Assembly (NCBI GenBank): GCA_051294375.1
Contig: CM119269.1
Location: 19,162,418 to 19,226,417 of the forward strand
Reading direction: 5' to 3'
DNA length: 64,000 bases
Source: Paraspadella gotoi
Taxonomy: Eukaryota; Animalia; Chaetognatha
The notes beneath the pieces are model-generated. The model did no database searches and was not told the DNA's origin. It saw nothing but the letters and a program-made list of their open reading frames with translations. Numbering within the stretch: the first letter of the stretch is position 1; each line of letters begins with the position of its first letter. Made by a program: the position numbers and the translations under genes. Below, in pieces: positions 18,493-64,000 of this stretch.

Positions 18493-20163
18493 CCCTCTCC
18501 TCTCTCTCTTCTCTCTCTCTCTCACTCCGACACGCTCCTTTTCCGCTTTTCTCCTCCTCCTTTCTTCTTTCTGCTGCCCCTTCTTTCTTTTCTTTCTCCT
18601 TTTCCTTCTCCTTTTTCTCCTTCTTCTTGTTCCTTTCTTTCTCACCTTTTCCGTTTTTCTTCTTCTCCACCTTTTTCTTTTTCTGCTCCTTCCTCCTTTG
18701 AGATTTTCTATCTTCCACTCCATTGTGCCGGTGACCTCGACGAGCTCGTAGCCTCCGAAGGCGGGGAACAACGCGCTGCAGAACCTGGTAGAAATATACT
18801 TGTAAGTGTGTAACGTTCTTGTTCTAGTACTTGTAATTTCTTCGATTCATGGATGTTTCCCTTTGTTATGGTTGAATCTCTTTTTAATTAGGTAAATTGT
18901 TCGTTACATTAAATAAGATTATTTAATATTCCTTATTCTCTTGCTCCTTTCCCTTCGCCTAATTTAATTGTTCTCTCTACTTTCTCTACTCTCCTCTATT
19001 TTTCTATTCTTTTTCCCACACTTTTTTCTTTCTTAACCTTTTGCATTATCTGGAAACGACTGCGAACGCCTTCCAGGGGAGCTTCCATCTGCTTGGCTTC
19101 CTTGTCCTCCAGGATGATGGAGCCTCTATTGGAGTCGGGGCGACGCTTCGGCTCCTGTTGCGAAAGTTTCGATCCGTTCGATGACTCCGCCGCAATATGA
19201 CTTTTTTAAATTTCCATCGCCTACGTTTCTCACTTTCCAAAGACCTCCTCACTCTTACCCGTAAACTGCGCTTCTGGAGAGCTGACGACTGCTCTGTAGG
19301 AGTGGGGCTCTTTGCGCTCATCAGTTGACTTCGGTGTCGGGCTTGAAGGTGGGATGTGGAAAGGGAAATGGGATAGAAGGGGTCGGAAGAGTAAGAAAAG
19401 AGGAGGGAAATGTAAACGAGTCCGGTCTATTTAGATTGCTTCTTTTAAATCTAAACAAATTCACCTTGAACTCTCCTGCTGTGTGGTATTGACTCCGGTG
19501 GTTAAGCTCGAATGGTGTGTTTGATGTTTTCCTTTTGTTCCTTTTAAGTCCTTGATACTGAATAGACGGGGAATCCATTCCTCCCTCACTTCACCTGGAA
19601 AAAAATGTAGGGCGGCTTAAACTTGGTTGCTGCTCTGTTATTTTTGCTGATATACGCGACAGCAAGAAGCGAGCGCTTAGTTTCTGTTTTTTGAAGAAAA
19701 TCGATGCCGTGCATGTGGAAAGAAAGTCCTTTGCGGCGCAATCGCAATATGAAATCAAATAGAACGATCGCCAGATCCAATGAAGAATAAACTTTTTCGG
19801 TTTATCTTATTGTTGTTAACTCCTCACTTTCCAACTATACTAGCAGTAACAGCTTTACCCTAAACAATTGCCGAAATCTCAGTGAATCAGAACACGAGAT
19901 TCCTTACTTCCTGGAACGAGCTGCTCTGAATTTGCTGATCCGTCCTCGTCCGATAAAAATGAGACGAATGTAAATCTGTTTAAGAATATGAGATTTTGGT
20001 CAACTAAGTTTTAAGCTTGAACTATAAGGGCTAGGATGGTTAAATTTTCCGTTTAATGTTTGACGTTAAAAACTAATAAGAAAAACGCAAAATAAGGATA
20101 GAGAGAGGGAAGAGAGAAAAGAGAGAGAAGAGAAGAAAGAAGATAAAGAGATTAAAAGAGAGA

Positions 20164-20200
<37 letters not shown>

Positions 20201-20206
20201 TAGAGA

Positions 20207-20237
<31 letters not shown>

Positions 20238-21002
20238 GAGAGCGAGTATAAAAATATCGAACTAATTTTTTTAAAAAAAGGTAATTAAAATAGATAAATA
20301 ACTTTGCGATCGTCACCTGAATTGTTTGTCAGTCGTCCGGACTTAAAATGTCGTCGTCGGCTGAGGCGGCAGCCGCACTTCCGCCCCCGAATCTTACGCC
20401 CCTCCTCGAATGCTGGGTGGTGATGGGTGAATGGGAGAAGAGTTGGGGCAGCGAGGAAAGAAGGAATTGTGAGGCGATAAAAGAAAATGAAAGGCGAAAG
20501 AGAATCTGGAGAAATATAAGTTAGGTCAAGTAAGAATCGTAAAAGTGAGGGGCAAAGGGGCTACAGTCAATTCAAAGTAAAAGTAATCCACCACAAGTTC
20601 ATCGGCAAACGACTTTGACAGGTTCACGTGATTTGATTTCAATCAAAGATCACAACTAACATGACGCCATGCGAACGAAATTAATCGAAAAAACTGACCG
20701 AAAAAGATTAGCAATAAAATTATATAATAAAATTAGAATGAACCCATAAGGAGCTATAATTGTATAGTCAGCTCTAAAGCAGACGACCAAACAAACTAAA
20801 GTTGGTGATATTCTATAGAAACAAAATTAAATAGGAAAGAAGGGTTTGAAGTTTTTTATTCGTTACAAACGCAACCTGTAAAAGAAGAACCCATCGCCTT
20901 TATTGCAGCAAATCCGCCGGAAGTCGCAATATGATCAGTTCTCAAGCTCGTTTCTCTCTTTGCTGTGATGAAATCCACCTGTGAAGAAACAAGAGAGAGA
21001 GA

Positions 21003-21075
<73 letters not shown>

Positions 21076-24000
21076 AGTGTGAATTTTGAGATGTCTGAAG
21101 CAAAGTACACAGGTAAAAAACTACAAGGTAAAACGCGTAAAACAATCCTTGGCGAATGGACTCGAACTGAAACGTAAGGATACTACCTTGACAGCGGTGT
21201 CCGTCGATCTGTGGATGATCTTCCTGTTCCGTCATCGTAGAAAAAAAGAGCTTCTGGGTTTCCACGTATAACTTGAGAGGAACGAAGCGATTTCAGTAAG
21301 GCGGGGGGGGGGTGAAAAAGAAATATTAAGTTACTGTGAGTTTTCTCATGAGCAATTTTCTTTGGGTGTCGTCTCAATTAAATATTTAATACGATTTAAA
21401 AACAGCTATTTGGTTTTTCTTCATGAATCTTTAATAAACGTCGGTTTTTTTTTTTTTTTTCTTTTTTTTTTAAATTTTGGCACTTGACATTTGAAAATTG
21501 GCTTTGGGGTGGTATTTTGCCAGGAATGTTTTTCTCGGCTCTCTTGCCTCTCTTGTTTTCAATAACTCGAGAATATCAAAAAAGAATTAAACAAATAGAA
21601 AAATGCCTACGGACATCTGACAGAGAGAGAGAGAGAGAGAGAGAGGAGAACGAGAGAGAGATAATTATCACGCCTGCATTGGGGCGAGAAGCAATTTGAG
21701 AAATCTTGATGTTTTTAATTCCGTTAAAATAATGTATTCGACTGGGACACGGAATTCCTTGAGTCTCGTCAGCGCGATTTACGTGAATTTAAATATCTGT
21801 CGAGGGTAATTGAAATCAGTTGTCGACAAAAAATAGCCATCAGTTTGAAGATAAAAATAAAAGAGAAAAAAGTAAAAAGAAGAAAAGGTTTGTTATAAAG
21901 TAATAAAAGTATGTAAATAAAGAGTTTTCATCAGCTTTTCAAAATAAAAGAGCGCTTCAGTTCGTCAGTTCCTGAAGAAAAAGTGCAATCAAGTTTCGGA
22001 TCATTTTCTAAAAAAGAGAAGATTTGTTTTAATCGGGAGGACGAGAAGGTGGCGATTGAAGTTTGAAAATAAAAAATAAATTCCTTATAAATTCTGAAGA
22101 AAAAAAAAAAGTTGCAACCTGCTACATGACATAATGAGAAGCGGAATCCCAATAAGGAAACACGAGGAGGACATAAACTTAGAAATTATTCTAAAGTTTA
22201 TCCCAAACGATTCAATAATGCAAATGAGAATTTTGAAGAAACTTTAAAGTTTCTCCCCATACGCCCGGCGACTGCACCCCCACTCTCCGTGTTTCCTTCG
22301 AAATAAAAATTCAGCGCGGAGAGATCGGATCGGAAGACGAGCACGAGTTTGTAGCGGTTGGGGAATCGGTGGGTCTTCCCTGCAAGCGGGGAAAAAAAGG
22401 GGGGATGGGTAAGAAAATATATGAGCGGGTAAGGTTTGAGTTTGTGTTTACTGCAGAGAGGACGGAAGAGTGTAGTTTTTAGAAATGAGAGTCGAAAGGC
22501 CGGAGAAAGATAAGGGTTGATTGAGTACAGTGAGAAACTGAGAAGAGTCAGTATTGAGTAATAAGGCGTAGTAAAATTCCTAGTTTAAACTTTAAATTAA
22601 AATTCTAAAAAGTGAGGAAAGAACAACGATTAAATACTTATGAAACAATTTATGTATAAAAAATTTATAAAAAATTTTACAATTTACGCAGTAGGCCATA
22701 ATTTATATAGTACTAACCCAATAAAATGTTAATTTTCAAAACAGTTTTTTTCTAAAATTTTTTTTGCAGATTTGGATTTGTCATAAAAAGTTGATAAAAA
22801 GAAAATTAACTCTTAATTTGAAAAAATTCCTTCATTAAGTGGGTCCAAAATTAGAAAAAGCTATATTTTAAGCTGAAATTAACTTTTTAATATATTAAAT
22901 ATAGTTTTTTTTAATTTTTAACCCACTTAATGAAAGAATTTTTAAAAAAATGATTTATATTTTTCTTTTATCAACTTTTGAACGAGGAATTCAAAATCTG
23001 CAATTCAAAATTAAGAAAAGCCTATTTTGAAATTTTCGATTTTTATAAGGATTAGTACTATATATAAAATATAGCCTACTGCAAAATTAATACAACATAA
23101 ATTAAATTTTTTTTACAATTAATGGTTCACTGATGGTAATGTTGTTCAAATTGACTTTTAGAAATTTTCGTATGTAACTTTCACTACGGCCTTATTGGTA
23201 AGGTTGAGAATTTAATTAATTGTTCGCTTTTCCTCGTTTCCCGACCTTCAACTTGAAAACAATTTTATAAAAGTTGTAAAGAAAATCAAGGTCGAACAAA
23301 AACCCTTTTAAGAATCACAGGTTGTGAATTTTTTAAAATTTTTTATAATTTATGGGAAGAAAAAGTAAAAAAAAATAAAACTTGGAATGAAAGAATCCAT
23401 TTAAACCGAAGCCTTAGAACGAATAGATAAGACCTTGGTTGTTGAAGTAAAGTTTTTTTTTTTGTTGCCATGCAACCAACCGTTAAGCGTGAATAGTCTA
23501 ACATTGGCAAATTAAATAACTAATTAAACAATTAATAAACTTTGACCGCTACGCCGCAAAAAAATATCGCCGCCGTTTTGGTTTTAAAAACTCGAACCCT
23601 GCGGATCCCACTCCCGACTTAAATCACATCGCCTGAGCCCGGACGATAGGGCACTAGGAGCGCCGTCGATCTCTTTGGTGTGCCAACTTCTCTGAGGCTG
23701 CCCTTCGGACACGTGGCGAAGCCCTCGTTCCGAGAAGGACTCCTCCAGAGGAGCCTTTGGACTTTTTGTTCCCCCATCGAACTTGGTCGGGGGATGTGTG
23801 TGGAGCCGGGAGAAGAGTGGAATAACCAAAAAGAGATTAAAAAAAAAAAAAACATTAAAAAAAGAACAATCATTTAAAAAAAAAGGGAGTCACTTTTAAC
23901 ATCCTTTTATATATTAAAAAACATCACAATATATACGATCACATAAATAATTTTAAAAAAATATCAAAGCATCTGCGAAAAAAGGTATAATAAAAGGGTT

Positions 24001-25405
24001 CTAAATGTTGTGACCGCCTTAAGGGTTTTCGAATCAATCTGCATCAACAATTAAACAAGACGGACAAATCGTCAACAACAAAAGTGCCTCACCTTCTCTT
24101 CTAATTCCCAAAGATTTGCCCGCCAAGGAGGGAGCAAGTTCGACTCCTTCCTCGGAAGTTTCTCGATCGCTCCGAAGCATAATATTTCTCCTTTCCGTGT
24201 TGTTGTTGTCGGTTTTTTGTTGTTTGTTGTTGTGTCGAGCGGATAACTCAAATTAAATCTACGAAAAATAGAGATTTGAGTATTCGTTTTAAAAAATTAT
24301 TGCCCAGGGAACAATCCGGTAGGAATCGTAAGAGAAAGTATCATATTTTAATGGTACGTACCAATTTCTTTAGATTAAGCCGAGGTTGTTTTAATTTAGA
24401 AAAAAACAACTCCTTTGCACGAGAGATAACAAAAAAAGTGTCAAGGCGAAGAAACAATTTTTTTTATATAATCCAATTCCAACGCCTCTTATTTATTTTT
24501 CGACCGAGGCGTCGACTTAAAAATAGAAACATTATGAATGATGATGATGATGATGATGATGATCCATGAATGATGATGATAGAATGGATGATGATGATTG
24601 TGCATCTAGAAGACGACGCCTGATGATGACTATGGAACGACTAATGAGAATGATAAATGATGAAGATTATTATGACTATCCGATGATGATGATGATGATG
24701 ATGATGATATGAATGATAGAATGATGATGAAAAAAAAATTGGGGAAATTTGGGAAAAAATGATATATTCGACCAAAACATTGACCACCACAAAACGTCAG
24801 ATTGGACCCGCTACGACGATATTCTTTCAATTACGTAAAGCTATAGACAAGGTTGTTGAATAAAATTAACGTACGATCTTAGATGCAGACAATGACAATG
24901 TACAAATGATGTTGTGGGCGAAGCACGAACGACCGCCGGCGACGACGATGAAGAAGCGGACGACGATTTTTCTCCAACGGAACGCAAAACCAACGAAACC
25001 AGAGTCATGCGATTTTCGGATGAAGAAACAACAGAGAAAAAAAAAATGGGTAGTCTCCTAAAAGAGGTAAAGGTAGGGTGGTCGTTATTTTTTTTTTCAA
25101 AAAATGGCAAATAAAAATAGGGGAAAATCGCTGAAAACAAAAATATGTTAGTATTTAATAGAAAAAATAAGGAGAGTGAAGAAAATCAAAAGATTTCTGT
25201 TTCAGCTTCCCGGTGCGAAATAGAGTGTCACATAAAAGGGCAATAATTAAATTAACGAGACAAGTTTTGAAATAGAAGATAGTAAGGTGGTGTAAATTGG
25301 AAAATTTAGAGGGGGCTTAAAAATAAGAAAAATGGGCTAATGTTAATGGAAACGCAAATTGATGTAAGACCGATGTTGTAAGAAGATGAGAGAGAGAGAG
25401 AGAGA

Positions 25406-25479
<74 letters not shown>

Positions 25480-28400: not shown

Positions 28401-28532
28401 CCATTGCCCCATCAGTGAGTCTATCATCGAAGCTATGGAACCGATTACAGCAATAAGTGATAATTATTCAGAAAAAAAAAAACATAATTTCTCTTGCGCA
28501 CGTCTCTCTCTCTCTCTCCTCTTCTCTCTCTG

Positions 28533-28604
<72 letters not shown>

Positions 28605-31600
28605 CTCTTTCTCTCTCTCCCACTCCCAGAGACCTTTCGGCGAGGACGAAGGTTTAAAAGCAGAGTCTGAATGCACAGACTGCCCGCCGGTCACGATGCC
28701 CGCGGGAGGGTAATGACGGAACCGGAGCCGTGCGGGAGGGAAAGTTTTCGGTGAGTTACTCGGTTTACCTACTAGTTTAGTTAATTTTCCAAAAATAAAA
28801 CAAAGATTACTTAAAATTCGCAAAATCTATCAGAAACCAAAGGACGTGTGCTTCACCTGTTGGGCGGGTCACACTGCGATTCGGAAAAAACTTCGTTGCA
28901 ATCCATGATGGACGACAAAAATGTCGGCTGGAACTTTCTGTCCTCAGGACAAGATTCTCTTCCGGATCTCACGACCAACGCCTGCAAGCTGGGCCACTAT
29001 TGTCTCAAAGGGGTAAATAGAAGGACCTCGAGAGTCGAGAGATGTTTCCTACTTATGGTCAAGCTATCAAATATAAATAGTGCTCGTGCGGAATTAGGTG
29101 GTTTTCTAAGTGATAATTTCTCGTAGTTAAGTAGATCGGATCGTAACGAGATAAATGAAGAGCACATAGTAAGAGGGCATGGGAGAAAACATTGATGCAA
29201 AAATTTATTTTTTTTTATTTCTTAGTGAAAGCGATGAAACAGATTTTTAGAGAAAATTTCGGTTCTAATTTGGGATATGGGTTAAGGAAATTGAAAGAGA
29301 TAGAGAGACAGAGAGAGAGAGACAGAGAGAGAACTCACTTGATTATCTCCTATTCATATAGTTTATATCTTGTTCACATACCAGACAAGACAGAACAACC
29401 TTGTCCAAGTGGAAAGTACGGCCACGAACTGGACTCAGAAATGTCACGGAGTGTCTTCAATGCCCACCTGGGTATTTTGCTACCCAGAAGGGGATCAGTG
29501 AAAAATTGTAAGTCTCTTTCCAATAGTATTTTTTTTTAATCAGTTCAATCAAGTGTTAATTTTCCATTAAATATTTCGTTTTCTTTTCTTTTTCTGTAGA
29601 CGAGAGTCAAGCGTGTCCAGACGGCTACTTTTGCCCAGAAGGAACGGGCCATCACTTGTCTAATCCTTGCCCAATTGGATATTACAGAAAACGTAAGATC
29701 TAAACTAAATTAAACTTTATCCAGAATGGTATTATACTTAATAAAATCGTGAAAAAAATTAGTTCATTTTGAGACTCCACTACATCAATTTTTGCATTCT
29801 TCATGATGATAACTGAGAAATGTGCATGCACATTATTCTATGTATGATGACCAATTTATCTGTCTTTCCTTCCAGGATCGTCAGCAATTCCGTTAGCGAC
29901 TGTACCCCTCTGTATTTCGGGATTTATTCGACGAGCAAGGGCTGGCCACTCCAAAGATATGCCCTCGAGCCAATTCTGCCCAACAGGAGCTTTAAACTCC
30001 ACTCCTTGTGACCGGGTTACTATCCAACGCCACGGGGCTTTTCCGGCTCGCACCAATGCAACCCTTGCCCTGGGGAAGGTACTGCGCCGGATATGAATTA
30101 CTAAATCATCGGGGCCGTGCGAGGAAGGCTTCTACTGCAGAACTAAGGCAGTCTCTGAGGTAAGGTTCTTTCTCAGGAGTACTTATTTTTTTCTTTTTAG
30201 TTGATAATTAATTTCATTACTACGTAATAATCTCACAAAAAAATTGACAAAAATATTTTTTACTGTTATTTAAACATCATTGTTTAAGTAAAAAGCTAAC
30301 TTTTATATAATTATATAAGTATATATTTAAAAAAGTTTTTACCTGAACCAGATTTTCTTTCATTAGGCGCCAGTTGACGGTTGCGACTGGTGGGGCTCTG
30401 TCTTAAGGGTGGTTACTGCCCAGAAGGGTCAGCTTGGCCAGAAGCGTGCAAGCCTGGGTACTACACAAACAAGATAGGAGCCAAAACTTTCACGATTGCC
30501 TCTCATTGCGATCCCGGGTATGGAAAGGGTGAGAGATGCAATGAGGTTAACTTATTGTACTCAGTTTGATCTTTAATGGAGATAACATGTAAAAAATTGA
30601 TCGATACAAAAACTAAGTTATGTATGTGTGATCTCATGTCATCTTGGCAATGTAGTGATGCGTGCAAAATTACTCATAACTTAAGAAAATATAGAAAAAA
30701 TTGTTTTAATTATTTCCCTTACATTTTGCCTCGCCTCAACAGAAAGTAATTGTCCGGGTGGTGCTGGCGAAGACGCCAGTCTCAATGTCACGCGGGTTAT
30801 TACTGTCCTGGAGGCTCTAAAGTCCCCAACGATAAGAAGCAAAAGCGGGCACTACAGCAAAGAGGTAAGGTCTCAAAGTGACCTTGCTACCTTTTTACTC
30901 TCTACCTTTGGCCCTCAAAAAATTAAAATATGTATTATCATTATCCTTATTATCATAATCCTCACAAATCTCTGTAGGCGTCTTACATTGACACACCATG
31001 CAATCCTGCTACTATCAGCCCTCCAGTGGGCAGTCTGAATGTCGCCTGTGCATCCAGGGCAGCTTTTGTACGAGACAGGCACGGCTGATGCAACGCTCTG
31101 CCCGAAGGCTTTCTACTGCCCTCTCGAAGCGTCATTCCCATTGCGTGCCACGTTGTAAGACAATCCGTTTTTTGGAAGCATCCAACTTCCCAGTCAGCTT
31201 TTTTTTTTCTTCTTTCTTCTTTTTTTTTTTTAAATTTTTCCCCTTTCAGTCTCTCACTGACAGTAAAAATTTCCCTAACCTTCACCATCGTATGGGAACT
31301 TTCCTCGATGTGGAAGGTAAGGACTCGGAATATGCCTGCGAGCTCTGTCCCTTGGGGTACTACTGCAACGAAACGGGCCTGGCGAAACCGAAGGGAAAAT
31401 GTGCGGCTGGTCACTAATTGTAACAGGAGAATTCTACTTCGCCGTTTCCAGTAAGAGAATACTTCTACTAAAAAAACAGAGAGATAAGAGAGAGATATCG
31501 TTTTTAAAGTATTTCGTCTGTTCCAATTATATCATGAATGGTACTAGCTTTAATGGTAGCTTCGTGACATAGTGAAACACTCATTATCAAAGCAAAATGA

Positions 31601-34600
31601 AAAAAAAGTCACCCCATAGTCTATATTCCCCTTCTTGAATATAATTTTTCGTCGACTACCATTCATAACTCCTCCATATGAAGGACAAATCGGCTGGCGA
31701 CGATTTTGGTGACATTTGCCCCCGGGATTTTTCTGCATCGAGGCACAATCACGCAAACAGTGCGGCAACGGAACTTACAGCAACTCCAGTGGCCTTAGGC
31801 CGAAGAGGATTGCGAGCCCTGCGACGCCGGGCGGGTCTGTACGGGCTCGGCCTGACTGAGGCCCAACGGAGTCTGCGCTAAAGGTGCGAGTGAAAGAGAA
31901 AATTTTCTATTTTTATGCAGTTACCTTTATTTAACTCTGTTTGAATTTTCGCCTTCCTTCCTCCTTTCCTTTTCGTCCTTTCCTTCCTTCCTTCCCTCTT
32001 TCGCCTTCCTATTTTTCCCTTTCCTTAACTTTGTCAGGGTTTTACTGCTTGCCGGCGCCAAAACTCCAACTCCGAGGACAAAATTACCGGGGGGAATGTG
32101 CCCGGGCGGTTACTATTGCCCTCAAGGCAGCACTCATCCCCTGCGATGCCCTCCTGGGCTTTATCAAGAGCGAGGGCAAGGAGGCCTGCGACCCTTGTCC
32201 GGCCGGTTTTTACTGCAGGGGTGAATATATAGACGTTTTAGCACCTGATGGAGGAACATTATTAGTAAAGTGACAATATTCCTATTATAGTTTAGAGAAC
32301 TTTTAATCACTTTTTAAGCACGATTTAAAGAAAATGTTACCGGCGTTTAATTTTTTTTGTTTTTAAATCTTAATTTTTTTAGACAAAAAAATTTAAAGCG
32401 TTAAAGCATTAAATATTGCCTTTTGTTAACTGTTTTTGTGATCTCGTTGGCAGGAAACGAATGGATGCGAGTCAAGAACCCCTGCCTTGGGTCATTACTG
32501 TCCCGATGGCTCCGAGTCAGGTGTGCCCTGCCCAAGAGCACATTCAACAATGAGACGGAAAGGAAGAGTGTTAGTGCGTGCTCGCCATGATGTAAAGGGT
32601 AAGTAAAAAAAAAATAGAAGAGCTAACAGCAACGGGAAACCGAAAATGAAATTAAGAAAGACAATAAAGTTTTTTGATTCCACTAGGCCGATACTGTTTC
32701 GCCTCTGTCTCGAAGATTCTTCCCAAATTCCCGGCACCGGAGAATGCGCGGCCGGATTCTATTGCGAATCCGGCGTGACTACCGCCACCCCCGGAGCCCC
32801 CGAACCAACATTTTGGTGCACCCACGACCACAGACGCATCGCCACATCTCGCCCTGCAACGTCTCGACCGTGCCGGAAACGTGGCGGATCCTGCCCCGGG
32901 TCACTTTTGTCTCAAGGGCGGACTAGGGGGCCCCCAGCGGTCGGTATCCATCTCCTTGCCCCGTGGGAACGTTTTTTTGGGTAGTAAAGATGGACCGGGT
33001 TGCGATGTTTTTGAAGTTACGTGTCGTCAATAAAAATTTGATCAAAATTTAATTAGAATAACGTAATTCATAAAGAAAATTAAGGCCACTCAGTATAAAG
33101 ACTTGATCTTTTTTATCTGTCTCATCGAGTCCTTTAAAAAGGATGGTTGCTGTTAAGAGAGGAAAATAATTTTGGAAAAAAAAACCAGACCAAAAAAAGC
33201 NNNNNNNNNNNNNNNNNNNNNNNNNTCTTTCTCCTTTTCCTTCTCCTTTTTCTCCTTCTTCTTGTCCTTCTTTTCTCCCTTTTCCTTTTTCTTCTTCTCC
33301 ACCTTTTTCTTTTTCTCTCCTTCCTCCTTGAGATTTTCTATCTTCCACTCCATTGTGCCGGTGACCTCGACGAGCTCGTGGCCTCCGAAGGCGGGGAACA
33401 CGCGCTGCAGAACCTGGTAGAATATACTTGTAAGTTGTAACGTTCTTGTTCTAGTACTTGTAATTTCTTCGATTCATGATGTTTCCTTTGTTATGGTTGA
33501 ATCTCTTTTTTATTAGGTAAATTTCGTTACATTAAATAAGATTATTTAATATTCCTTATTCTCTTGCTCCTTTCCTTCCCTATTTTATTTTCTCTACTTT
33601 CTCTACTCTCTCTATTTTTCTTTTCTTTTTCCCACACTTTTTTCTTTCTTACCTTTTGCATTATCTGGAACGACTGCGACGCCTTCCAGGGGAGCTCCAT
33701 CTGCTTGGCTTCCTTGTCCTCCAGGATGATGGAGCCTCTATTGGAGTCGGCGACGCTTCGCTCCTGTTGCGAAGTTTCGATCCAGTTGATGACAATATGA
33801 CTTTTTATTCCATCGCTACGTTTCTCACTTTCCAAAGACTCCTCAATCTTACCCTGTAACTGCCGCTTCTGGAGAAGCTGACGACTCTCTGTAGGGTGGG
33901 GCTCTTTGCGCTCATCAGTTGACTTCCGGTGTCGGGCTTGAAGGTGGGATGTGGAAGGGAATGGGATAGAAGGGGTCGGAAGAGTAAGAAAAGAGGAGGG
34001 AAATGTAAAGAGTCCGGTCTATTTAGATTCTTCTTTTAAATCTAAACAATTCACCTTGACTCTCCTGCTGTGGGTATTGACTCCGGTGGTTAGCTCGAAG
34101 GTGTGTTTGATGCTTTCCTTGTTTCCTTTTAATCCTTGATACTGATAGACGGGAATCCATTCCTCCCTCACTTCCACCTGGAAAAAAATGTNNNNNNNNN
34201 NNNNNNNNNNNNNNNNNNNNNNNNNNNNNNNNNNNNNNNNNNNNNNNNNNNNNNNNNNNNNNNNNNNNNNNNNNNNNNNNNNNNNNNNNNNNNNNNNNNN
34301 NNNNNNNNNNNNNNNNNNNNNNNNNNNNNNNNNNNNNNNNNNNNNNNNNNNNNNNNNNNNNNNNNNNNNNNNNNNNNNNNNNNNNNNNNNNNNNNNNNNN
34401 NNNNNNNNNNNNNNNNNNNNNNNNNNNNNNNNNNNNNNNNNNNNNNNNNNNNNNNNNNNNNNNNNNNNNNNNNNNNNNNNNNNNNNNNNNNNNNNNNNNN
34501 NNNNNNNNNNNNNNNNNNNNNNNNNNNNNNNNNNNNNNNNNNNNNNNNNNNNNNNNNNNNNNNNNNNNNNNNNNNNNNNNNNNNNNNNNNNNNNNNNNNN

Positions 34601-36100
34601 NNNNNNNNNNNNNNNNNNNNNNNNNNNNNNNNNNNNNNNNNNNNNNNNNNNNNNNNNNNNNNNNNNNNNTAAAAAAGGTATTAAAATAGATAAATAACTT
34701 TGCGATCGTCACCTGAATTGTTTGTCAGTCGTCGGACTTAAAATGTCGTCGTCGGCTGAGGCGGAGCCACTTCCGCCCCCGATCACGCCCCCTCGAATCT
34801 GGGTGGTGAGGTGATGGGAGAAGAGTTGGGCAGCGAGGAAAGAAGGAATTGTGAGCGAATAAAAGAAAATGAAAGCGAAAGAGAATCTGGAGAAATATAA
34901 GTTAGGTCAAGTAAGTTCGTAAAAGTGAGGGCAAAGGGGCTACAGTCAATCAAAGTAAAAGTAATCCACCACAGTTCACGCAACGACTTTGACAGGTTCA
35001 CGTGATTTGATTTCATCAGAGATCACAACACATGACGCCATGCGACGAAATTAATCGAAAAAACTGACCGAAAAAGATTAGCATAAAATTATAATAAAAT
35101 TAGAATGACCCATAAGGAGCTAATTGTATAGTGAGCTCTAAGCACGACCAAACAAAAACTAAAGGTTGGTGATATTTATAGAACAAAATTAAAAAGAAAG
35201 AAGGGTTTGAGTTTTTTAATTCGTTACAAACGCACCTGTAAAGAAGAACCCATGCCTTTATTGCCATGCAATCCGCCGGAAGCGCATATGATCAGTTCCA
35301 GCTCGTTTCTCTCTTTGCTGTGACTGAAATCCACCTGTNNNNNNNNNNNNNNNNNNNNNNNNNNNNNNNNNNNNNNNNNNNNNNNNNNNNNNNNNNNNNN
35401 NNNNNNNNNNNNNNNNNNNNNNNNNNNNNNNNNNNNNNNNNNNNNNNNNNNNNNNNNNNNNNNNNNNNNNNNNNNNNNNNNNNNNNNNNNNNNNNNNNNN
35501 NNNNNNNNNNNNNNNNNNNNNNNNNNNNNNNNNNNNNNNNNNNNNNNNNNNNNNNNNNNNNNNNNNNNNNNNNNNNNNNNNNNNNNNNNNNNNNNNNNNN
35601 NNNNNNNNNNNNNNNNNNNNNNNNNNNNNNNNNNNNNNNNNNNNNNNNNNNNNNNNNNAACTGACGTACGGATACTAACCTTGACAGCGGTGTCCGTCGA
35701 TCTGTGGATGATTCTTCCTGTTTCGTCATCGTAGAAAAAAAGAGCTTCTGGGTTTTCCACGTACTTGAGAGGACGAACGATTTCAGTAAGGCGGGGGGGG
35801 GGTTGAAAAGGAAATATTAAGTTACTGAGTTTCTCATGACATTTTCTGGGTGTCGTCTCAATTAACTCGCTATTTAAATACGATTTAAAACAGCTATTTG
35901 GTTTTTCTCTCATGAATCTTTAAATAAACGTCGGTTTTTTTCTTTTTTTTTTCTTTTTTTTTTAAATTTGGCACTTGACATTTGAAAATTGGCTTTGGTG
36001 GTATTTTGCAGGATGTTTTTCTCGCTCTCTTCCTCCCTTGTTTTTCATAACTCGAGATATCAAAAAAGAAATTAACAATAGAAAAATGCCACGACAATCT

Positions 36101-36141
<41 letters not shown>

Positions 36142-39004
36142 TTATCACCTGCATTGGGGCGAGAAGCAATTTGAGAATCTTGATGTTTTTAATTCCGTTG
36201 AAATAATTGTATTCGACTGGGACGACGAATTCCTTGAGTCTCGTCAGCGCGTTTACGTGAATTAAATATCTGTCGAGGGTAAATTTGTAATCAGTTGTCG
36301 ACAAAAATAGCCATCAGTTTGAAGATAAAAATAAAAGAGAAAAAGTAAAAAGAGAAAAGGTTGTTATAAGTAATAAAAGTATGTAAATAAAAAGTTTTCA
36401 TCAGCTTTTCAATAAAAGAGCGTTCAGTTCGATCAGTTCCTGAAGAAAAAGTGCAATCAGTTCGATCATTTTCTAAAGAGAAGATTTGTTTTAATCGGGA
36501 GGACGAGAAGGTGCGATTGAGTTGAATAAAAAAATAAATTCCTTATAATTCTGAGAAAAAAAAAAGTTGCAACCTGCTACATGACATAATGAGAAGCGGG
36601 AATCCAATAAGGAAACACGAGGAGACATAAACTTAGAAATTATTCTAGGTTATCCCAAACGATTCAATATGCAAATGAGATTGAAGAACTTAAAGTTTCT
36701 CCCATACGCCCGCGACTCACCCCCACTCTCCGTGTTTCCTCTCGAAATAAAATTCAGCGCGGAGAGATCGATCGGAGACGAGCACGAGTTTGTAGCGGTT
36801 GGGGAATCGGTGGGTCTCCCTGCAAAGCGGGGAAAAAAAGGGGGGATGGGTAAGAAAAATATATGAGCGGGTAAGGTTTGAGTTTGTGTTTACTGCAGAG
36901 AGGAGGAAGATGTAGTTTTTAGAATGAGAGTCGAACGGCCGGAGAAGATAAGGGTTGATTGAGTACAGTGAGAACTGAGAAGAGTCAGTATTGAGTAATA
37001 AGGCGTAGTAAAATTCCTAAGTTTAACTTTAATTAAAATTCTAAAAGTGAGGAACGAACAACATTATACTTATGAACATTTATGTATAAAAAAAATTTAT
37101 AAAAAATTTTACAATTTACGCAGTAGGCCATATTTATACTAGTACTAAACCAATAAATGTTAAAATTTCAAAACAGTTTTTTCTAAAATTTTTTTGCAGA
37201 TTTGGATTTGTCATAAAAAGTTGATAAAAAGAAATATAACTCTTTTTGAAAAATTCCTTCATTAAGTGGGTCAAAAATTAGAAAAAGCTATATTTTAAGC
37301 TGAAAATTAACTTTTTATATATTAAATATAGTTTTTTTAATTTTTAACCCACTTAATGAAAGAATTTTTAAAAATGATTTATATTTTCTTTTATCAACTT
37401 TTGACGAGGAATTCAAATCTGCAATCAAAATTAAGAAAAGCCTATTTTGAAATTTTTCGATTTTATAAGGATAGTACTATATATAAATATAGCCTACTGC
37501 AAAAATTATAAAACATAAAATTAATTTTTTTTACAAATTAATGTTCACTGATGGTATGTTGTTCATAATTGACTTTTAGAATTTTCGTATGTAACTTTCA
37601 CTACGCCTTATTGAGTAAGGTGAGAATTTAAAATTGTTCCTTTTTCCTCGTTTCCCGACCTTCAACTTGAAAACAATTTTATAAAGTTGTAAAGAATCAA
37701 GGTCGACAAAACTTAAGAATCAAGGTTGTGATTTTTTTAATTTTTATAATTTATGGGAGAAAAAGTAAAAAAAAATAAAACTTGGATGAAGAATCCATTT
37801 AAAACCGAAGCCTTAGACGAATAGATAAGACCTTGGTTGTTGAAGTAAAGTTTTTTTTCGTTGCCATCACCACCATTAAAGTGAATGGTCTACCATTGCA
37901 AATTAATAACTAATTAATAATTAATAACTTTGACCGCTTCCCCCAAAATTATCCGCCGTTTTGGTTTTAAACTCGACCCTCGCGGATCCCACCCCCGACT
38001 TATCCACTCGCCTGAGCCCGACGTAGAGCGGCACGTAGGACCCGTCGATCTCTTTGGTGTGCCAACTTCTGAGGCTGCCCTTCGGACCCACGTGGCGCAG
38101 CCCCTCGTCCGAGAAGGACTCCTCCAGAGGAGCCTTGGACTTTTTGTTGCCCATCGAACTGTGGTCGGGGAATGTGTGTGGAGCGGGAGAAGAGGGGAAT
38201 AACAAAAAAGAGATTAAAAAAAAAAACATTAAAAAAAAAGACATCCACTTAAAAAAAAATGGCAGCCACTTTAACCATCCTTTATATATTAAAAACATCA
38301 CAATATATACGATCATATTAAAAAATTTCAAAATATCAACATCAGCGAAAACAAGGTATACAAAAGGGTTCTAATGTTGTGACCCCCTTAAAAGGGTTCC
38401 GCATCATCTGCATCAACGTTAACAACATCGTCAACATCAAAGTCTCACCTTTCTCTTCTATTCCCAAATATCGCCTCCGCCAAGGAGGGAGCAAGTTCGA
38501 CTCCTTTCCTTCGGAGTTTCTCGATCGCGTCGAGCATAAATATTTCTCTTCCGTTGTTGTTGTTGTTGTTTTTTGTTGTTGTTGTGTCGACGGATACTCA
38601 AATTAAATCTACGAAGAATAGAGTATTCGTTTAAAATTATTGCCCAGGGAACAATCGGTGGGAATAGTAGAGAAAGTATCATATTTTAATGGTCGTACCA
38701 ATTTCTTTAGATTAAGCCGAGGTTGTTTTACTTTAGAAAAGAAAAAAAAAACTCCTTGCACGAGAGAATACAAAAAAAGTGTCAAGGCGAGAACAATTTT
38801 TTTTTATATAACTCAATTCCAACGCCTCTTATTTTTTTTCGCCGAGGCGTCGACTAAAATAGAAACATTATGATGATGATGATGATGATGATGATNNNNN
38901 NNNNNATGAAGGTGATGATGATGATTGTGATCTAGAAGACGACGCTGATGATGACTATGACGACTATGAGAATGATAAATGATGAAGATTATTATGACTA
39001 TCCC

Positions 39005-39073
<69 letters not shown>

Positions 39074-42000: not shown

Positions 42001-42679
42001 GATTCATTTATTCATTCATTGATTGATTTATTGATTGATTGATTCATTCATTCATTCATCAGTCATTGATTTATTGATTGATTTATTCATTGATTGAAAG
42101 AATGACTACAAATTTAAAAAAAAAAACAGGAACCGGCGGGGCCAAACGCCCTTCGGAGTGCCTCAAGGGTCACTACTGTCCCGAGGGGACAGCATCCGAA
42201 TCAGAAATAAAATGTGTCTCGGGTTCTTGGACAAACCGAACAGATTTAGCCGCTCAAAAGGATTGCTACATCTGCCCCAGGGGCCGCTACTGCATTGGAG
42301 GCCAATCTTATGACGGGGATGAGTGTATCGAGGGAATGTACTGTCCCAAAGGTTCGCTGGACTGGTATAATATGAGAAGATATTTGATGTATTAAGCGTA
42401 CTCATTTAATAATAATAAGTTTGTGAAATGCTTTGTCTCTATGTATTTACAGGAACCAAAAAGGCGACTCAGCACAAATGCCCTGCAGGGACTTACTCTG
42501 GCAACAAGGGCAACTACAGAGTGGAGCAGTGCGACACATGTCCGCATGGGTCTTATTGTGAAAAGGGCAGCCGGGAACCAACCCCATGCCCCATCAGTGA
42601 GTCTATCATCGACGCTATGGAACCGATTACAGCATAAGTGATAATTATTCAGAAAAAAAAACATAATTTCTCTTGCGCA

Positions 42680-42775
<96 letters not shown>

Positions 42776-45700
42776 TCTCTCTCCCCACTCCCCAGAGACC
42801 TTCGGCGAGGACGAAGGTTTAAAAGCAGAGTCTGAATGCACAGACTGCCCGCCGGTCACGGATGCCCGCGGGAGGGTATGACGGAACCGGAGCCGTGCGG
42901 GAAGGGAAAGTTTTCGGTGAGTTACTCGGTTTACCTACTAGTTTAGTTAATTTCCAAAAATAAAACAAAGATTACTTAAAATTCGCAAAATCTATCAGAA
43001 ACCAAAGGACGTGTGCTTCACCTGTTGGGCGGGTCACTACTGCGATTCGGAAAAAACTTCGTTGCAATCCATGATGGACGACAAAAAATGTCCGGCTGGA
43101 ACTTTCTGTCCTCAGGGACAAGATTCTCTTCCGGATCTCACGACCAACGCCTGCAAGCTGGGCCACTATTGTCTCAAAGGGGTAAATAGGAAGGACCTCG
43201 AGAGTCGAGAGATGTTTCCTACTTTATGGTCAAGCTATCAAATTATAATAGTGTTCGTGCGGAATTAGGTGGTTTTCTTAAGTGATAATTTCTCGTAGTT
43301 AAGTAGATCGGATCGTACGAGATAAATGAAGAGCACATAGTAAGAGGGCATGGGAAGAAAACATTGATGGCAAAAAAAAGTGTTTTTTTAATTTCTTAGT
43401 TGAAAAGCGATGAAACAGATTTTTAGAGAAAATTTCGGTTCTAATTTGGGATATGGGTTAAGGAAATTGAAGAGATAGAGAGACAGAGAGAGAGAGACAG
43501 AGAGAGAACTCACTTGATTATCTCCTATTCATATAGTTATATCTTGTTCACATACCAGACCAAGACAGAACAACCTTGTCCAAGTGGAAAGTACGGCCCA
43601 CGAACTGGACTCAGAAATGTCACGGAGTGTCTTCAATGCCCACCTGGGTATTTTTGCTACCCAGAGGGGATCAGTGAAATTGTAAGTCTCTTTCCAATAA
43701 GTATTTTTTTAATCAGTTCAATCAAGTGTTAATTTTCCATTTAAATATTTTCGTTTTCTTTTCTTTTTCTGTAGACCGAGAGTCAAGCGTGTCCAGACGG
43801 CTACTTTTGCCCAGAAGGAACGGGCCATCACTTGTCTAATCCTTGCCCAATTGGATATTACAGAAAACGTAAGATCTAAACTAAAATTAAACTTTATCCA
43901 GAATGGTATTATACTTAATAAAATCGTGAAAAAATTAGTTCATTTTGAGACTCCACTACATCAATTTTTGCATTCTTCATGATGATTAACTGAGAAATGT
44001 GCATTGCACATTATTCTATGTATGAATGACCAATTTATCTTGTCTTTCCTTCCAGGATCGTCAGCAATTTCCGTTAGCGACTGTACCCTCTGTATTTCGG
44101 GATTTTACTGCGACGAGCAAGGGCTGGCCACTCCAAAGATATGCCCTCGAGGCCAATTCTGCCCAACAGGCAGCTTTAACTCCACTCCTTGTGAACCGGG
44201 TTACTACTCCAACGCCACGGGGCTTTCCGGCTCGCACCAATGCAACCCTTGCCCTGGGGGAAGGTACTGCGCCGGATATGGGAATACTAAATCATCGGGG
44301 CCGTGCGAGGAAGGCTTCTACTGCAGAACTAAGGCAGTCTCTGAGGTAGGTCTTTCCTCAGGAGTAACTTATTTTTTTCTTTTTAGTTGATAATTAATTT
44401 CATTACTACGTAATAATTCTCACAAAAAAATTGACAAAAATATTTTTCTACTGGTTATTTAAACATCATTGTTTAAGTAAAAATCTAACTTTTATATAAA
44501 TTATATAAGTAAATATTTAAAAAAGTTTATTACCTGAACCAGATTTTCTTCCAATTAGGCGCCAGTTGACGGTGCGACTGGTGGGCTCTGTCTTAAGGGT
44601 GGTTACTGCCCAGAAGGGTCAGCTTGGCCAGAAGCGTGCAAGCCTGGGTACTACACAAACAAGATAGGAGCCAAAACTTTCAACGATTGCCTCTCATGCG
44701 ATCCCGGGTATGGAAAGGGTGAGGGATGCAATGAGGTTAACTTATTGTACGCAGTTTGATCTTTAATGGAGATAACATGTAAAAATCTGATCGATACAAA
44801 AACTAAGTTACGTATGTGTGATCTCATGTCATCTTGGCAATGTAGTGATGCGTGCAAAATTACTCATAATTTAAGAAAATATAGAAAAAATTGTTTTAAT
44901 TATTTACCTTACTATTTGCCTCGCCTCAACAGAAAGTATTGTCCGGGTGGTGCTGGCGAAGACGCCAGTCTCAAATGTCACGCGGGTTATTACTGCCCTG
45001 GAGGCTCTAAAGTCCCCAACGATAAGAAGGCAAAAGCGGGGCACTACAGCAAAGAAGGTAAGGTCTCAAAGTGTCCTTGCTACCTTTTTACTCTCTACCT
45101 TTTGGCCCCTCAAAAAATTAAAATATGTATTATCATTATCCTTATTATCATAATCTTCACAAATCTCCTGTAGGCGCTTACATTGACACACCATGCAATC
45201 CTGGCTACTATCAGCCCTCCAGTGGGCAGTCTGAATGTCGCCTGTGCATCCAGGGCAGCTTTTGTAACGAGACAGGCACGGCTGATGCAACGCTCTGCCC
45301 GAAGGGCTTCTACTGCCCTCTCGGAAGCGTCAATCCCATTGCGTGCCACGTTGTAAGACAATCGTTTTTGGAAGCATCAACTTCCCAGTCAGGCTTTTTC
45401 TTTCTTTCTTTCTTTCTTTTTTTTGTTTTTTTGTTTTAAATCTTTTCCCCCTTTCAGTCTCTCACTGACAGTTAAAATTTCCCTAAACCTTTCACCCTCG
45501 TAGGGAACTTACCTCGATGTGGAAGGTAAGGACTCGGAATATGCCTGCGAGCTCTGTCCCTTGGGGTACTACTGCAACGAAACGGGTCTGGCGAAACCGA
45601 AGGGAAAATGTGCGGCTGGTCACTATTGTAACAGGAGGAATTCTACTTCGCCGTTTCCAGTAAGAGAATACTTCTTACTAAAAAAACAGAGAGATAAGAG

Positions 45701-48700
45701 AGAGATATCGTTTTTAAAGTAATTTCGTCTGTTCCAATTATATCATGAATGGTACTAGCTTTAATGGTAGCTTCGTGACATAGGTTAAACACCATTACCA
45801 AAGCAAAATGAAAAAAAAAAGTCACCCATAGTCTATATTGCCCGGTCTTGAATATAATTTTTCGTCGACTTACCATTCATAACTCCCCCATTGAAGGACA
45901 AATCGGCTGGCGACGATTTTGGTGACATTTGCCCCCGTGGATTTTTCTGCATCGAGGGCACAATCACGCCAAAACAGTGCGGCAACGGAACTTACAGCAA
46001 CTCCACTGGCCTTAAGGCCGAAGAGGATTGCGAGCCCTGCGACGCCGGGCGGGTCTGTACGGGGCTCGGCCTGACTGAGCCCAACGGAGTCTGCGCTAAA
46101 GGTGCAGAGTGAAAGAGAAAATTTTTCTATTTTTATGCAGTTACCTTTATTTAACTCTGTTTGAATTTTCGCCTTTTCTTCCTCCTTTCCTTTTCGTCCT
46201 TTCCTTCCTTCCTTCCCTCCTTTTCGCCTTTCCTTTTTTCCCTTCTCCATAACTTTGTCAGGGTTTTACTGCTTGCGCGGCGCCAAAACTCCAACTCCCG
46301 AGGACAAGGTTACCGGGGGAATGTGCCCGGCGGGTTACTATTGCCCTCAAGGCAGCACTCATCCCCTGCGATGCCCTCCTGGGCTTTATCAAGAGAGCGA
46401 GGGCAAGGAGGCCTGCGACCCTTGTCCGGCCGGTTTCTACTGCAGGGGTGAATATATAGACGTTTTTTAGCACCTGATGGAGGGACATTATTAGTAAAGT
46501 GACAATATTCCTATTATAGTTTAGAGGAACTTTTAAATCACTTTTTAAAGCACTATTTAAAGAAAATGTTACAGCGTTTAAATTTTTTTTTTTTAAATCT
46601 TTAATTTTTTTAGACAAAAAAATTTAAAGCGTTAAAGCATTAAATATTGCTTTTGTTAATTGTTTTTGTGATCTCGTTGGCAGGAAACGAATGGAGCGAG
46701 TCCAAGAACCCCTGCCTTGGGGGTCATTACTGTCCCGATGGCTCCGAGTCAGGTGTGCCCTGCCCAAGAGGCACATTCAACAATGAGACGGAAAGGAAGA
46801 GTGTTAGTGCGTGCTCGCCATGTGTAAAGGGTAAGTAAAAAAAAAATAGAAGAGCTAACAGCAACGGGAAACCGAAAATGAAATTAAAGAAAGACAATAA
46901 AGTTTTTGATTCCACTAGGCCGATACTGTTTCGCCCTCGGTCTCGAAGATTCTTCCCAAATTCCCGGCACCGGAGAATGCGCGGCCGGATTCTATTGCGA
47001 ATCCGGCGTGACTACCGCCACCCCCGGAGCCCCCGAACCAACATTTGGTGCCAACCTCACGACCACAGACGCATCGCCAACATCCTCGCCCTGCAACGTC
47101 TCGACCGTGCCGGAACGTGGCGGACTCTGCCCCCGGGGTCACTTTTGTCTCAAGGGCGGACTCGGGGGCCCCAGCGGTCGGTATCCATCTCCTTGCCCCG
47201 TGGGAACTTTTTTGGGTAAGTTAAAGATGGACCGGGTTGCGATGTTCTCGAAGTTACGTGTCGTCCAATAAAAATTTGATCAAAATTTAACTAGAATAAC
47301 GTTAATTCATAAAGAAAATTAAGACCACTCGCAAAGTAAGAAACGGAAGCTAGCGGAGTATAACTACTTGATCTTTTTTCATCGGTCTTATTTTTATTTT
47401 AATTTTTTTTCAGGTATTTAAATTAAAAAAATTATAAACTATGCCAAATATAGAAGAAAATTAATTTATAATGGACTTACCTACCTTAATATAGGCTTTC
47501 AAATACATATATAGTAAGCTTATTATGATTTATGTTTTGATATAGAAATACTAAATAATTTAAATAATTAATATATGAAAAAATTGATACTTTGATTTTT
47601 GTTTAGCATGAATAAACATAATTTTTCAATTATTTGTTCATGATGCTTTTAATAGATTACTGGTTCAGTGATCCTTTTCAAATTATAATAATTGATAAGC
47701 TTCTTTATTTTAGTAATTACTGACTGCTATATTTATCTTACTTTGTGACAAAATCCAAAAATTACTGATATTAAAAATTATTGTATGTAAACAGACGAAA
47801 ACTTTTTTTAATTCAGATTGCTATTAATTTTTTGGAGGATATGTATATTGATCCTTGGACTAAAATTTAAAAAGTTTCAACAATCTCAACTCGACATTTT
47901 AAGCCAAAAAGTTAGGTTGTTTAAAAAAATGCAAGATGCAAAAAGTAATAAAAAGTTATTGTCTTGAATATCTTTTGAAAAAAAGAGGAGCAAGGTGGGT
48001 GTGGTATCCAAATTAAAGCCCCTAATCTGGGACACATTTTCTAGAACAGTTTATTAAAATTTTATCCATTAAATCTTTACACAGTTTTATTTAATACGAT
48101 TTAAAAGATATAACAGTGTTTTTGCATTACAATTTCAATGAAGGCATTATGAACATTTTTGTTTTTCTTTTGACATTGAAAGAGAAAGTCTGAATTACAT
48201 TCTGTAATTATATTAAATTTTCTCAACTTTCATAAATTGCTTGTATTTTTAGTTTAAATAAAAAACAAGCAAAAATTTGTAGTAGCTTGATACAAATGTT
48301 TTTTTTTAAATTGAAAATGATTAAATATAAAATTTTTTCAGTCTTGATAAAAACAGTCTGGAGTCTACCTTCTTGTTCTGTGAAAAAAACATAATCATTT
48401 TTTCATTATCTTCAACTGCAAAGCAAAAGCTGAATACTGCCTGTTTATCGTAATAAATTTTAAAAAACATTACTTAACTGCTGACATATTTGACAAAGCA
48501 AGACTCATTGTGTGTGAATTGTATTGCTAATATTTTTCTTTTAAATATAAAACCTTTATAAGGAATTTAATTCTATTATTTATCATCCATTTTAACTAAG
48601 AAAAAAATTCGCAAAAGGGATTCATTGAACTTGACTTAATGATTTGATTTTTAAGGTTTCTTTACTGCCGCCACATTACGCAAGACTAAAAAGGTCTATT

Positions 48701-51635: not shown

Positions 51636-51671
<36 letters not shown>

Positions 51672-54600: not shown

Positions 54601-54706
54601 TACTGTGCCGAAAGGAAGATGAGATACCACTGTGGCAGAGCGCACTCCATTATGCAAACGGTGTAGTCCCTAGCGGAGATTAGAAGGTTCCGTCGTACAA
54701 ATCTCG

Positions 54707-54752
<46 letters not shown>

Positions 54753-63970: not shown

Positions 63971-64000
63971 GTGAGTTTTTTTACTGAATAATGATAATAA

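What the first reader, a model, noticed from the sequence alone, without database searches (positions are those of the whole stretch)
33226..38154. Hidden intronic gene: myristoylated mytilectin-like beta-trefoil protein with a possible pore-forming domain
Seen: a gene of at least 12 exons on the - strand, not visible as a unit in the ORF track. It starts MGNKKSK (MGxxxSK N-myristoylation consensus) with no signal peptide. It contains PNRYKLVLVSDRSLRAEFYFERKHGEWGYLIHV, ALFFYDDETGRIIH and FRFTFVS. Established: mussel MytiLec-1/CGL beta-trefoil lectins carry KLVLHSD..R..F.F..WGYIKHV, ALF..D....I.H and EFIFVS in that order (recalled, not aligned), and chimeric mytilectins add an aerolysin-like domain. 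Inference: the downstream ~200 aa (GKWEL after indel correction, HTFELTTGVN, SFQIMQKV..FGGHELVE) may be such a domain. That would make this a cytosolic, lipid-anchored relative of a lectin/pore-former family, possibly acting on membranes from inside the cell.
Basis: partly seen in the sequence, partly recalled or inferred. Interest (0 to 1): 0.85.

Follow-up and report, generated by a model that had tools for sequence, protein, structure and literature searches.

The report
Diverged mussel-type lectin relative, nested gene
This is a real, spliced 12-exon animal gene hidden in an intron of a larger gene; its front half is a distant relative of mussel sugar-binding proteins that lacks their sugar-binding motif, and it likely acts as a non-lytic protein inside the cell, because the proposed pore-forming half was not detected and the proposed lipid anchor would work only if translation skips an earlier start codon.

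Summary
The gene is real. Spliced contigs of one public run show 10 of its 11 introns and match the exons at 33.2-38.7 kb; the other copy (18.5-24.4 kb) is indel-ridden and probably an assembly artefact. The N-terminal domain is a distant mytilectin-type beta-trefoil: a 104-protein family profile scores 17.1 bits (P 2.6e-7, 0 of 2000 shuffles), and a two-exon profile ranks six mytilectin-class structures first in the PDB. It has none of the family's HPxGG galactose motifs. The whole protein could not be folded. Verdict: new, strongly diverged variant of a known family, probably non-lytic; the lipid-anchored pore-former reading is open but unsupported.

The parts
38449..38727 (-).
   Evidence: RNA contig piece 1-279 with 0 differences and GT-AG joint 38449/38158; frames; GC 52% against 34% upstream, codon log-odds +5.2, reached by 5 of 333 non-coding windows
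38012..38158 (-). Exon 2: ATG 38154 with MGNKKSK (residue 32 of the long form), start of trefoil lobe 1; GC donor
   Evidence: GPKG aligns to the family's GPIG start
36721..36819 (-). Exon 3: second half of trefoil lobe 1, best conserved stretch
36149..36269 (-). Exon 4: trefoil lobe 2, HPxGG absent
35680..35763 (-). Exon 5: end of lobe 2, start of lobe 3
35236..35334 (-). Exon 6: lobe 3, start of a Gly/Ser-rich insertion
34713..34798 (-). Exon 7: Gly/Ser-rich insertion
34192..34670 (-). N gap that holds exon 8 (last trefoil strand and linker; inferred 64 nt); seen only in the noisy copy at about 19908-19975
   Evidence: length from contig positions
34055..34177 (-). Exon 9: start of the C-terminal domain of unproven fold
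   Evidence: no hit
33853..33936 (-). Exon 10: region where a membrane hairpin would lie; hydrophilic
33653..33763 (-). Exon 11: C-terminal domain
33226..33413 (-). Exon 12 (runs into an N gap): end of the domain and a Lys/Glu tail (20 K and 10 E in 34 residues); stop not seen
18591..24430 (-). Second, indel-rich copy of the gene inside a 14.5 kb tandem repeat (18591-33091 against 33226-47330); probably a false duplication from uncorrected long reads
42078..47268 (+). Exons of the host gene (large Cys-rich repeat protein) that follow the intron holding the nested gene; host-like exons also at about 17250-17660
   Evidence: Ephrin_rec_like E 0.005, DUF7631 E 1e-4, both under the curated cut-off; a 10,355-nt contig of X1 lies on the duplicated host exons at 32036-32976

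Best explanation
This is an expressed, intron-rich gene nested antisense in an intron of a large cysteine-rich gene; it encodes a strongly diverged mytilectin-type beta-trefoil without the family's galactose motif, followed by a domain that is likely a decayed, non-lytic remnant of the family's aerolysin-like domain and by a lysine/glutamate tail, and it likely works as a cytosolic, membrane-associated binding protein rather than as a lectin toxin. Shown: splicing, trefoil homology, loss of HPxGG, no signal peptide, upstream in-frame ATG, charged tail. Inferred: ancestry of the C-terminal domain (position and length only); two N-termini, a long unmodified form from ATG 38537 and a short myristoylated form from ATG 38154 by leaky scanning or a second start site; membrane attachment by myristate plus lysines, as in hisactophilin-like myristoyl-electrostatic binding; a protein or lipid partner bound by the trefoil.
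For: Splicing. Trefoil: 17.1 bits, P 2.6e-7, 0 of 2000 shuffles, hhalign probability 73%, E 3e-5 over 129 collinear columns; glocal z 3.9 and 4.7, 0 of 300 shuffles, 0 of 77 decoy windows; best pairwise 67, 0 of 100 best-of-family shuffles; PDB ranks 1-6 of 11 are mytilectin class, E 5e-4 to 0.075. Sugar site lost; HPxGG is the class motif per PMC9468336 (passages). Non-lytic: best central hairpin score 1.1 against family median 3.95, 2 of 103 as low. Position: W-to-G 25 residues (family 21-22), G-to-MQ 72 (family G-to-WQ 44-67), length 128 (family median 119.5), from 66 of 104 parsed rows; most mytilectins are chimeric (PMC10744619, text parts 1-4). Two starts: extension is coding-like and MGxxxS[KR] is rare; MytiLec-1 also has an in-frame upstream ATG in exon 1 while the purified protein starts at the second Met (PMC4882566, passages); 3 of 124 sequences in File S1 of PMC10744619 start MG-x-x-x-S (hand count).
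Against: The C-terminal landmarks were picked by eye and no statistical test links that region to the family, so it may be unrelated. No short isoform was seen; the single transcript has two ATGs upstream of MGNKKSK. A stretch in exon 12 scores 3.65 as a hairpin, within the family range though outside the expected position. The trefoil match is distant (29% at best, end branch 5.3, unplaceable) and lobe 3 is poorly aligned. No fold prediction of the whole protein, no orthologue and no functional data.
Confidence: 0.45

Rival explanations
1. One reading: an N-myristoylated, cytosolic lectin with a working aerolysin-type domain that perforates membranes from inside the cell.
For: Trefoil homology; rare MGNKKSK; C-terminal region of the right place and size; mytilectin C-domain profiles also miss the proven aerolysin domain of SaroL-1 (PMC10744619), so sequence failure does not exclude the fold.
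Against: Upstream in-frame ATG in the only transcript; no HPxGG; no C-domain similarity: 0.1 bits, 945 of 2000 shuffles as high, hhalign E 0.39, z 0.4 and 0.2, 40 of 100; hydrophilic central region; GKWEL not supported.
Confidence: 0.12
2. A mytilectin-type trefoil joined to an unrelated C-terminal domain, a lineage-specific fusion with no pore-former ancestry.
For: All C-domain tests null; an aerolysin/ETX_MTX2 domain from P0051 scored 26.3 on the same profile against a shuffle mean of 4.0; other fetched relatives carry unrelated C-terminal parts (L002).
Against: Landmark spacing and length fit the family domain; the best, non-significant pairwise match falls at the expected first strand; the control is weak, since one decoy window reached 27.5.
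Confidence: 0.25
3. Only the long form is made; it is not myristoylated and, like mussel mytilectins, leaves the cell by a non-classical route to bind a different ligand.
For: Only transcript seen has the coding-like 31-residue extension; family members lack signal peptides, and the MytiLec-1 extension was proposed as a non-classical signal.
Against: Leaves the rare MGNKKSK unexplained; the lysine-rich tail suits a cytosolic membrane face (inference); sugar residues lost.
Confidence: 0.15
4. A decaying transcribed pseudogene or a chance resemblance.
For: Very long branch; no orthologue found.
Against: Open frame through all 11 exons visible in the clean copy, canonical splicing and coding-like codon use; significant trefoil statistics.
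Confidence: 0.03

Closest known systems
Chimera-type mytilectins (MytiLec-2/-3 and relatives; PMC10744619, PMC4882566)
   Same: Homologous beta-trefoil at the N-terminus, no signal peptide, a following region of similar length; in-frame upstream ATG in a separate first exon as in MytiLec-1.
   Different: No HPxGG; Gly/Ser-rich insertion in lobe 3; C-terminal region not recognised by a family profile; Lys/Glu tail; 12 exons against 1-3 coding exons; about 440-460 residues against about 280-330; at most 29% identity.
SaroL-1 of Salpingoeca rosetta (PMC9468336)
   Same: Mytilec-class trefoil followed by a domain that mytilectin C-terminal profiles do not detect.
   Different: SaroL-1 keeps HPxGG, binds Gb3 and has a solved aerolysin-type domain with shown pore formation; none of this is shown here.
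Vent-snail (Peltospiridae) mytilectins in File S1 of PMC10744619
   Same: Three start MG-x-x-x-S and have a similar short motif at the start of the C-domain (by eye only).
   Different: They keep recognisable HPxGG motifs and a WQ motif and are intronless in the coding region; myristoylation is not discussed in that paper (0 hits for 'myrist').
Hisactophilin of Dictyostelium (PMC9245636)
   Same: Functional analogue for the short form: a myristoylated cytosolic beta-trefoil that binds membranes by lipid plus charge.
   Different: No sequence comparison was made; hisactophilin is a single His-rich domain with a pH switch, and homology is not claimed.

Membership tests
Mytilectins | N-terminal domain homologous to the mytilectin beta-trefoil | tested here: met
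   17.1 bits, P 2.6e-7, 0 of 2000 shuffles; PDB ranks 1-6. Much weaker than the E 1e-31 to 1e-70 that the paper reports for members with its own model.
Mytilectins | HPxGG sugar-binding motif in the lobes | tested here: not met
   0 in the query; 91 of 104 family members have at least one, 13 of 104 have none.
Mytilectins | Beta-trefoil fold of the whole domain | not testable with these tools
Mytilectins | Galactose/Gb3 binding | not testable with these tools
   Needs a glycan array or calorimetry.
Chimera-type mytilectins | C-terminal domain recognised by the family's C-terminal profile | tested here: not met
   0.1 bits, 945 of 2000 shuffles as high; z 0.4 and 0.2; 40 of 100. Own profile of 103 proteins; the paper's own HMM was not run.
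Chimera-type mytilectins | Gene of 1-3 coding exons with shared intron positions | tested here: inconclusive
   12 exons here; one intron falls near the middle of the C-terminal region and others in lobe 3, as the paper describes, but exact positions are in a figure that is not held.
Aerolysin-type beta pore formers | Aerolysin/ETX_MTX2 fold | tested here: inconclusive
   No Pfam or PDB match for single exons, low power; no fold model.
Aerolysin-type beta pore formers | Amphipathic insertion hairpin in the middle of the domain | tested here: not met
   Central score 1.1, family median 3.95, 2 of 103 as low; a 3.65 stretch lies in exon 12. Home-made score.
N-myristoylated proteins | Consensus G-x-x-x-S/T after Met (PROSITE-type pattern, recalled) | tested here: met
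   MGNKKSK; 11 of 1215 ATGs meet the loose pattern, 2 of 1215 the strict one.
N-myristoylated proteins | That Met is the initiator | tested here: not met
   Not met in the one transcript seen: in-frame ATG 38537 and out-of-frame ATG 38682 lie upstream. Other isoforms and leaky scanning cannot be tested with contigs.

The most novel reading that the evidence does not exclude
A chimeric mytilectin that turned inward: it gave up sugar binding, gained a myristoyl anchor under start-codon control and a polybasic tail, and keeps an aerolysin-type domain that acts on the cell's own membranes from the cytosolic side, with vent-snail mytilectins as a parallel, unnoticed case of myristoylation in the family.
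Probability: 0.12. Interest if true: 0.75.

Novelty: new variant of a known kind. Interest (0 to 1): 0.42.

Why it matters
Mytilectins are seen as secreted or non-classically exported sugar-binding immune proteins, most with a pore-forming domain. A member that has lost the sugar sites, gained ten or so introns and may be lipid-anchored inside the cell would show the scaffold being re-used for an intracellular job, and it lies beyond the reach of the usual family searches, so such offshoots may be widely missed. If the pore domain proved functional, it would be a candidate inside-out aerolysin-type effector. As it stands the case rests on one gene in one assembly with one RNA run.

Tried and rejected
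No whole genome held. Pfam on 11 single exons: no relevant family. Word-based homologue search with exon 9: 0 of 2 candidates scored. HMMER search of 1.84 billion representatives with the two-exon profile: 1 hit, a 4814-residue unrelated repeat protein, used only as a decoy. ESM Atlas with exons 3 and 9: no usable hit. PDB with exons 5, 9, 10, 11, 12: nothing relevant; exon 3 alone gave Mitsuba-1 at E 0.38. A four-fragment alignment was out of register and was dropped. Motif scan of prokaryote genomes: 0 hits. First profile from 43 mostly near-identical relatives gave only P 1.7e-4 for the trefoil; the broader profile is the one reported. hhalign shuffles timed out and were replaced by hmmsearch shuffles. 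Beta/alpha periodicity has no power (family 0.98, shuffles 1.00, query 0.82). The tree could not place the query, quick search only, 44 of 104 family rows kept after thinning. No paralogue elsewhere in the window: of 2021 six-frame segments none is significant alone, and exons 5 and 3 rank first and third. Earlier findings: three look-ups, nothing. Paper searches for myristoylation with aerolysin and for lost pore activity gave 0, 12 and 0 papers; the 9 listed titles and abstract openings describe no such protein. The taxon of the window was not determined. A second promoter in intron 1 (TATA-like at about 38289) was considered; nothing supports it.
Full report
Observation. The quoted motifs lie on the minus strand in short exons between 33226 and 38154. 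The window holds a 14.5 kb tandem repeat, 18591-33091 against 33226-47330, so the gene appears twice. One public run (X1, labelled 'RNA?' by the tool) holds 28% of the sampled words. Its contigs skip eight introns in the 33-38.7 kb copy and two more in the other copy. That is 10 of 11 introns; seven of the first eight are listed with GT-AG ends and one reads as GC-AG. Contigs that skip introns show spliced RNA, but this is one run and contigs give no start sites or levels. The three gene pieces listed match the 33-38.7 kb copy without a difference.

The second copy. Over 1414 aligned exon bases the copies differ by 84 indel events and 18 substitutions; the same excess of indels holds across the repeat, and the RNA contig differs from the 18.5-24.4 kb copy by indels in every listed piece. 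This is the error profile of uncorrected long reads (established knowledge), so a false duplication is the likely cause. Read depth was not available to prove it.

Corrections to the gene model. A joint at 38449/38158 adds an upstream exon, 38727-38449. It holds an out-of-frame ATG at 38682 and an in-frame ATG at 38537 with a stop codon before it, so MGNKKSK begins at residue 32 of this transcript. The 29 codons in exon 1 have 52% GC against 34% just upstream, and a synonymous-codon score of +5.2 against -17.1 (sd 9.6) for non-coding windows, 5 of 333 as high. The extension therefore looks translated. Exon 8 lies in an N gap. The stop codon lies in or beyond the N gap under 33226. With X at the breaks the visible protein is 438 positions long.

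Context. The gene lies antisense in an intron of a large plus-strand gene of cysteine-rich repeats (weak Ephrin_rec_like and DUF7631 matches). A rhodopsin-type receptor gene is nested the same way at 52.9-55.8 kb, which points to an animal; the taxon was not determined.

N-terminal domain. Exon 3 alone finds Mitsuba-1 first in the PDB at E 0.38. A profile of exons 3 and 5 ranks six mytilectin-class sequences as hits 1-6 of 11, E 5e-4 to 0.075. To test this properly I found a mytilectin in a metagenome contig by a short motif and collected relatives (52; the best 120 of 174). A profile of 104 trefoils scores exons 2-7, read with X at each junction, at 17.1 bits (P 2.6e-7; 0 of 2000 shuffles; best shuffle 10.0), and hhalign gives 129 collinear columns at probability 73%, E 3e-5. 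A glocal alignment gives z 3.9 and 4.7, with 0 of 300 shuffles and 0 of 77 decoy windows as high. The best pairwise partner is a brittle-star protein (score 67, 0 of 100), but a tree leaves the query on a branch of 5.3 with no supported place. HPxGG, the sugar-binding signature of the class (PMC9468336, passages), is absent, as is any His-Pro; 91 of 104 relatives have HPxGG and 99 of 104 have His-Pro. Galactose binding is therefore unlikely (inference).

C-terminal region. Against a profile of 103 family C-domains, exons 9-12 score 0.1 bits (945 of 2000 shuffles as high; hhalign E 0.39), z 0.4 and 0.2, and 45 in the best pairwise match (40 of 100 shuffles). An aerolysin/ETX_MTX2 domain from another protein scored 26.3 on that profile, but one decoy window reached 27.5, so the control is only suggestive. 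PMC10744619 (text parts 1-4 of 9 and File S1 read) reports that its own C-terminal model fails on SaroL-1, whose aerolysin-type fold is solved; a null result thus does not exclude the fold. For common ancestry speak only position, length and hand-picked landmarks. Against a working pore: the central part has no alternating hydrophobic hairpin (1.1 against a median of 3.95, 2 of 103 as low), although a stretch in exon 12 scores 3.65. A tail of 20 lysines and 10 glutamates in 34 residues follows.

Myristoylation. MG-x-x-x-S-[KR] follows 2 of 1215 ATGs in the window, so the motif is unlikely to be chance. Yet the only transcript seen has two ATGs before it. MytiLec-1 has the same layout, an in-frame ATG in exon 1 and a purified protein that starts after the second Met, and its authors list leaky scanning, cleavage or a second start site (PMC4882566, passages). 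By hand count 3 of 124 sequences in File S1 of PMC10744619, all from vent snails, start MG-x-x-x-S; 2 of 125 proteins fetched here start MG, and the one that fits the loose pattern looks truncated. I put use of the second ATG in a real fraction of molecules at about 40%.

Mechanism. Most likely a cytosolic, non-lytic offshoot of chimeric mytilectins, made with two possible N-termini, whose short form would attach to membranes by myristate and lysines and whose trefoil would bind a partner other than galactose. Hisactophilin is the working analogue of a myristoylated trefoil (PMC9245636, passages); no homology is claimed.

Verdict. Real gene, real but distant family link, two of the three striking claims unproven or weakened. 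New variant of a known kind; interest 0.42. The fold of the whole protein was not computed, which leaves the C-terminal question open. Searches of the paper library for mytilectin (18 papers, listing seen) and for myristoylation with aerolysin showed no description of such a protein; most subscription journals are not in that library.

Noticed in passing
window 17250-17660, 27850-33030, 42078-47270, 51155-52140, 59137-59361, 63802-63984 (+): Host gene: very large plus-strand protein of cysteine-rich repeats (weak Ephrin_rec_like, DUF7631), with a 10,355-nt contig in run X1; it spans most of the window and holds several nested antisense genes.
   Followed up: partly
window 52969-55781 (-): Nested rhodopsin-family GPCR gene (7tm_1 matches E 9e-6 and 5e-7).
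   Followed up: partly
window 59998-60819 (-): Two exons that look by eye like a C-type lectin domain; no Pfam match at E 0.01.
   Followed up: partly
window 18591-47330: 14.5 kb tandem repeat with indels far outnumbering substitutions; probably a false duplication from uncorrected long reads that also duplicates host-gene exons.
   Followed up: yes
window 38011-36820 (-): The intron after exon 2 has a GC donor (GC-AG), supported by the RNA joint.
   Followed up: yes
window 38731-38745 and 39173-39178 (-): A pyrimidine tract and AG lie just before the start of the RNA contig, and a strong GTAAGT donor lies at about 39178: a further upstream exon or a trans-splice acceptor is possible.
   Followed up: no
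window 37035-37600 and 47394-49754: A high-copy AT-rich repeat with inverted arms in intron 2 (depth in the thousands; inverted matches) and another inverted pair near 47.4-49.8 kb; probably non-autonomous transposons.
   Followed up: no
PMC10744619 File S1: Three vent-snail mytilectins start MG-x-x-x-S, a possible myristoylation signal that the paper's main text does not mention.
   Followed up: partly
L002 343-1308 (-); P0038, P0042, P0045, P0047, P0052: Mytilectin relatives with unusual C-termini: L002 has the trefoil followed by a low-complexity region; the P0038 group has a long extra C-terminal part without a Pfam match (P0038 and P0052 scanned).
   Followed up: no
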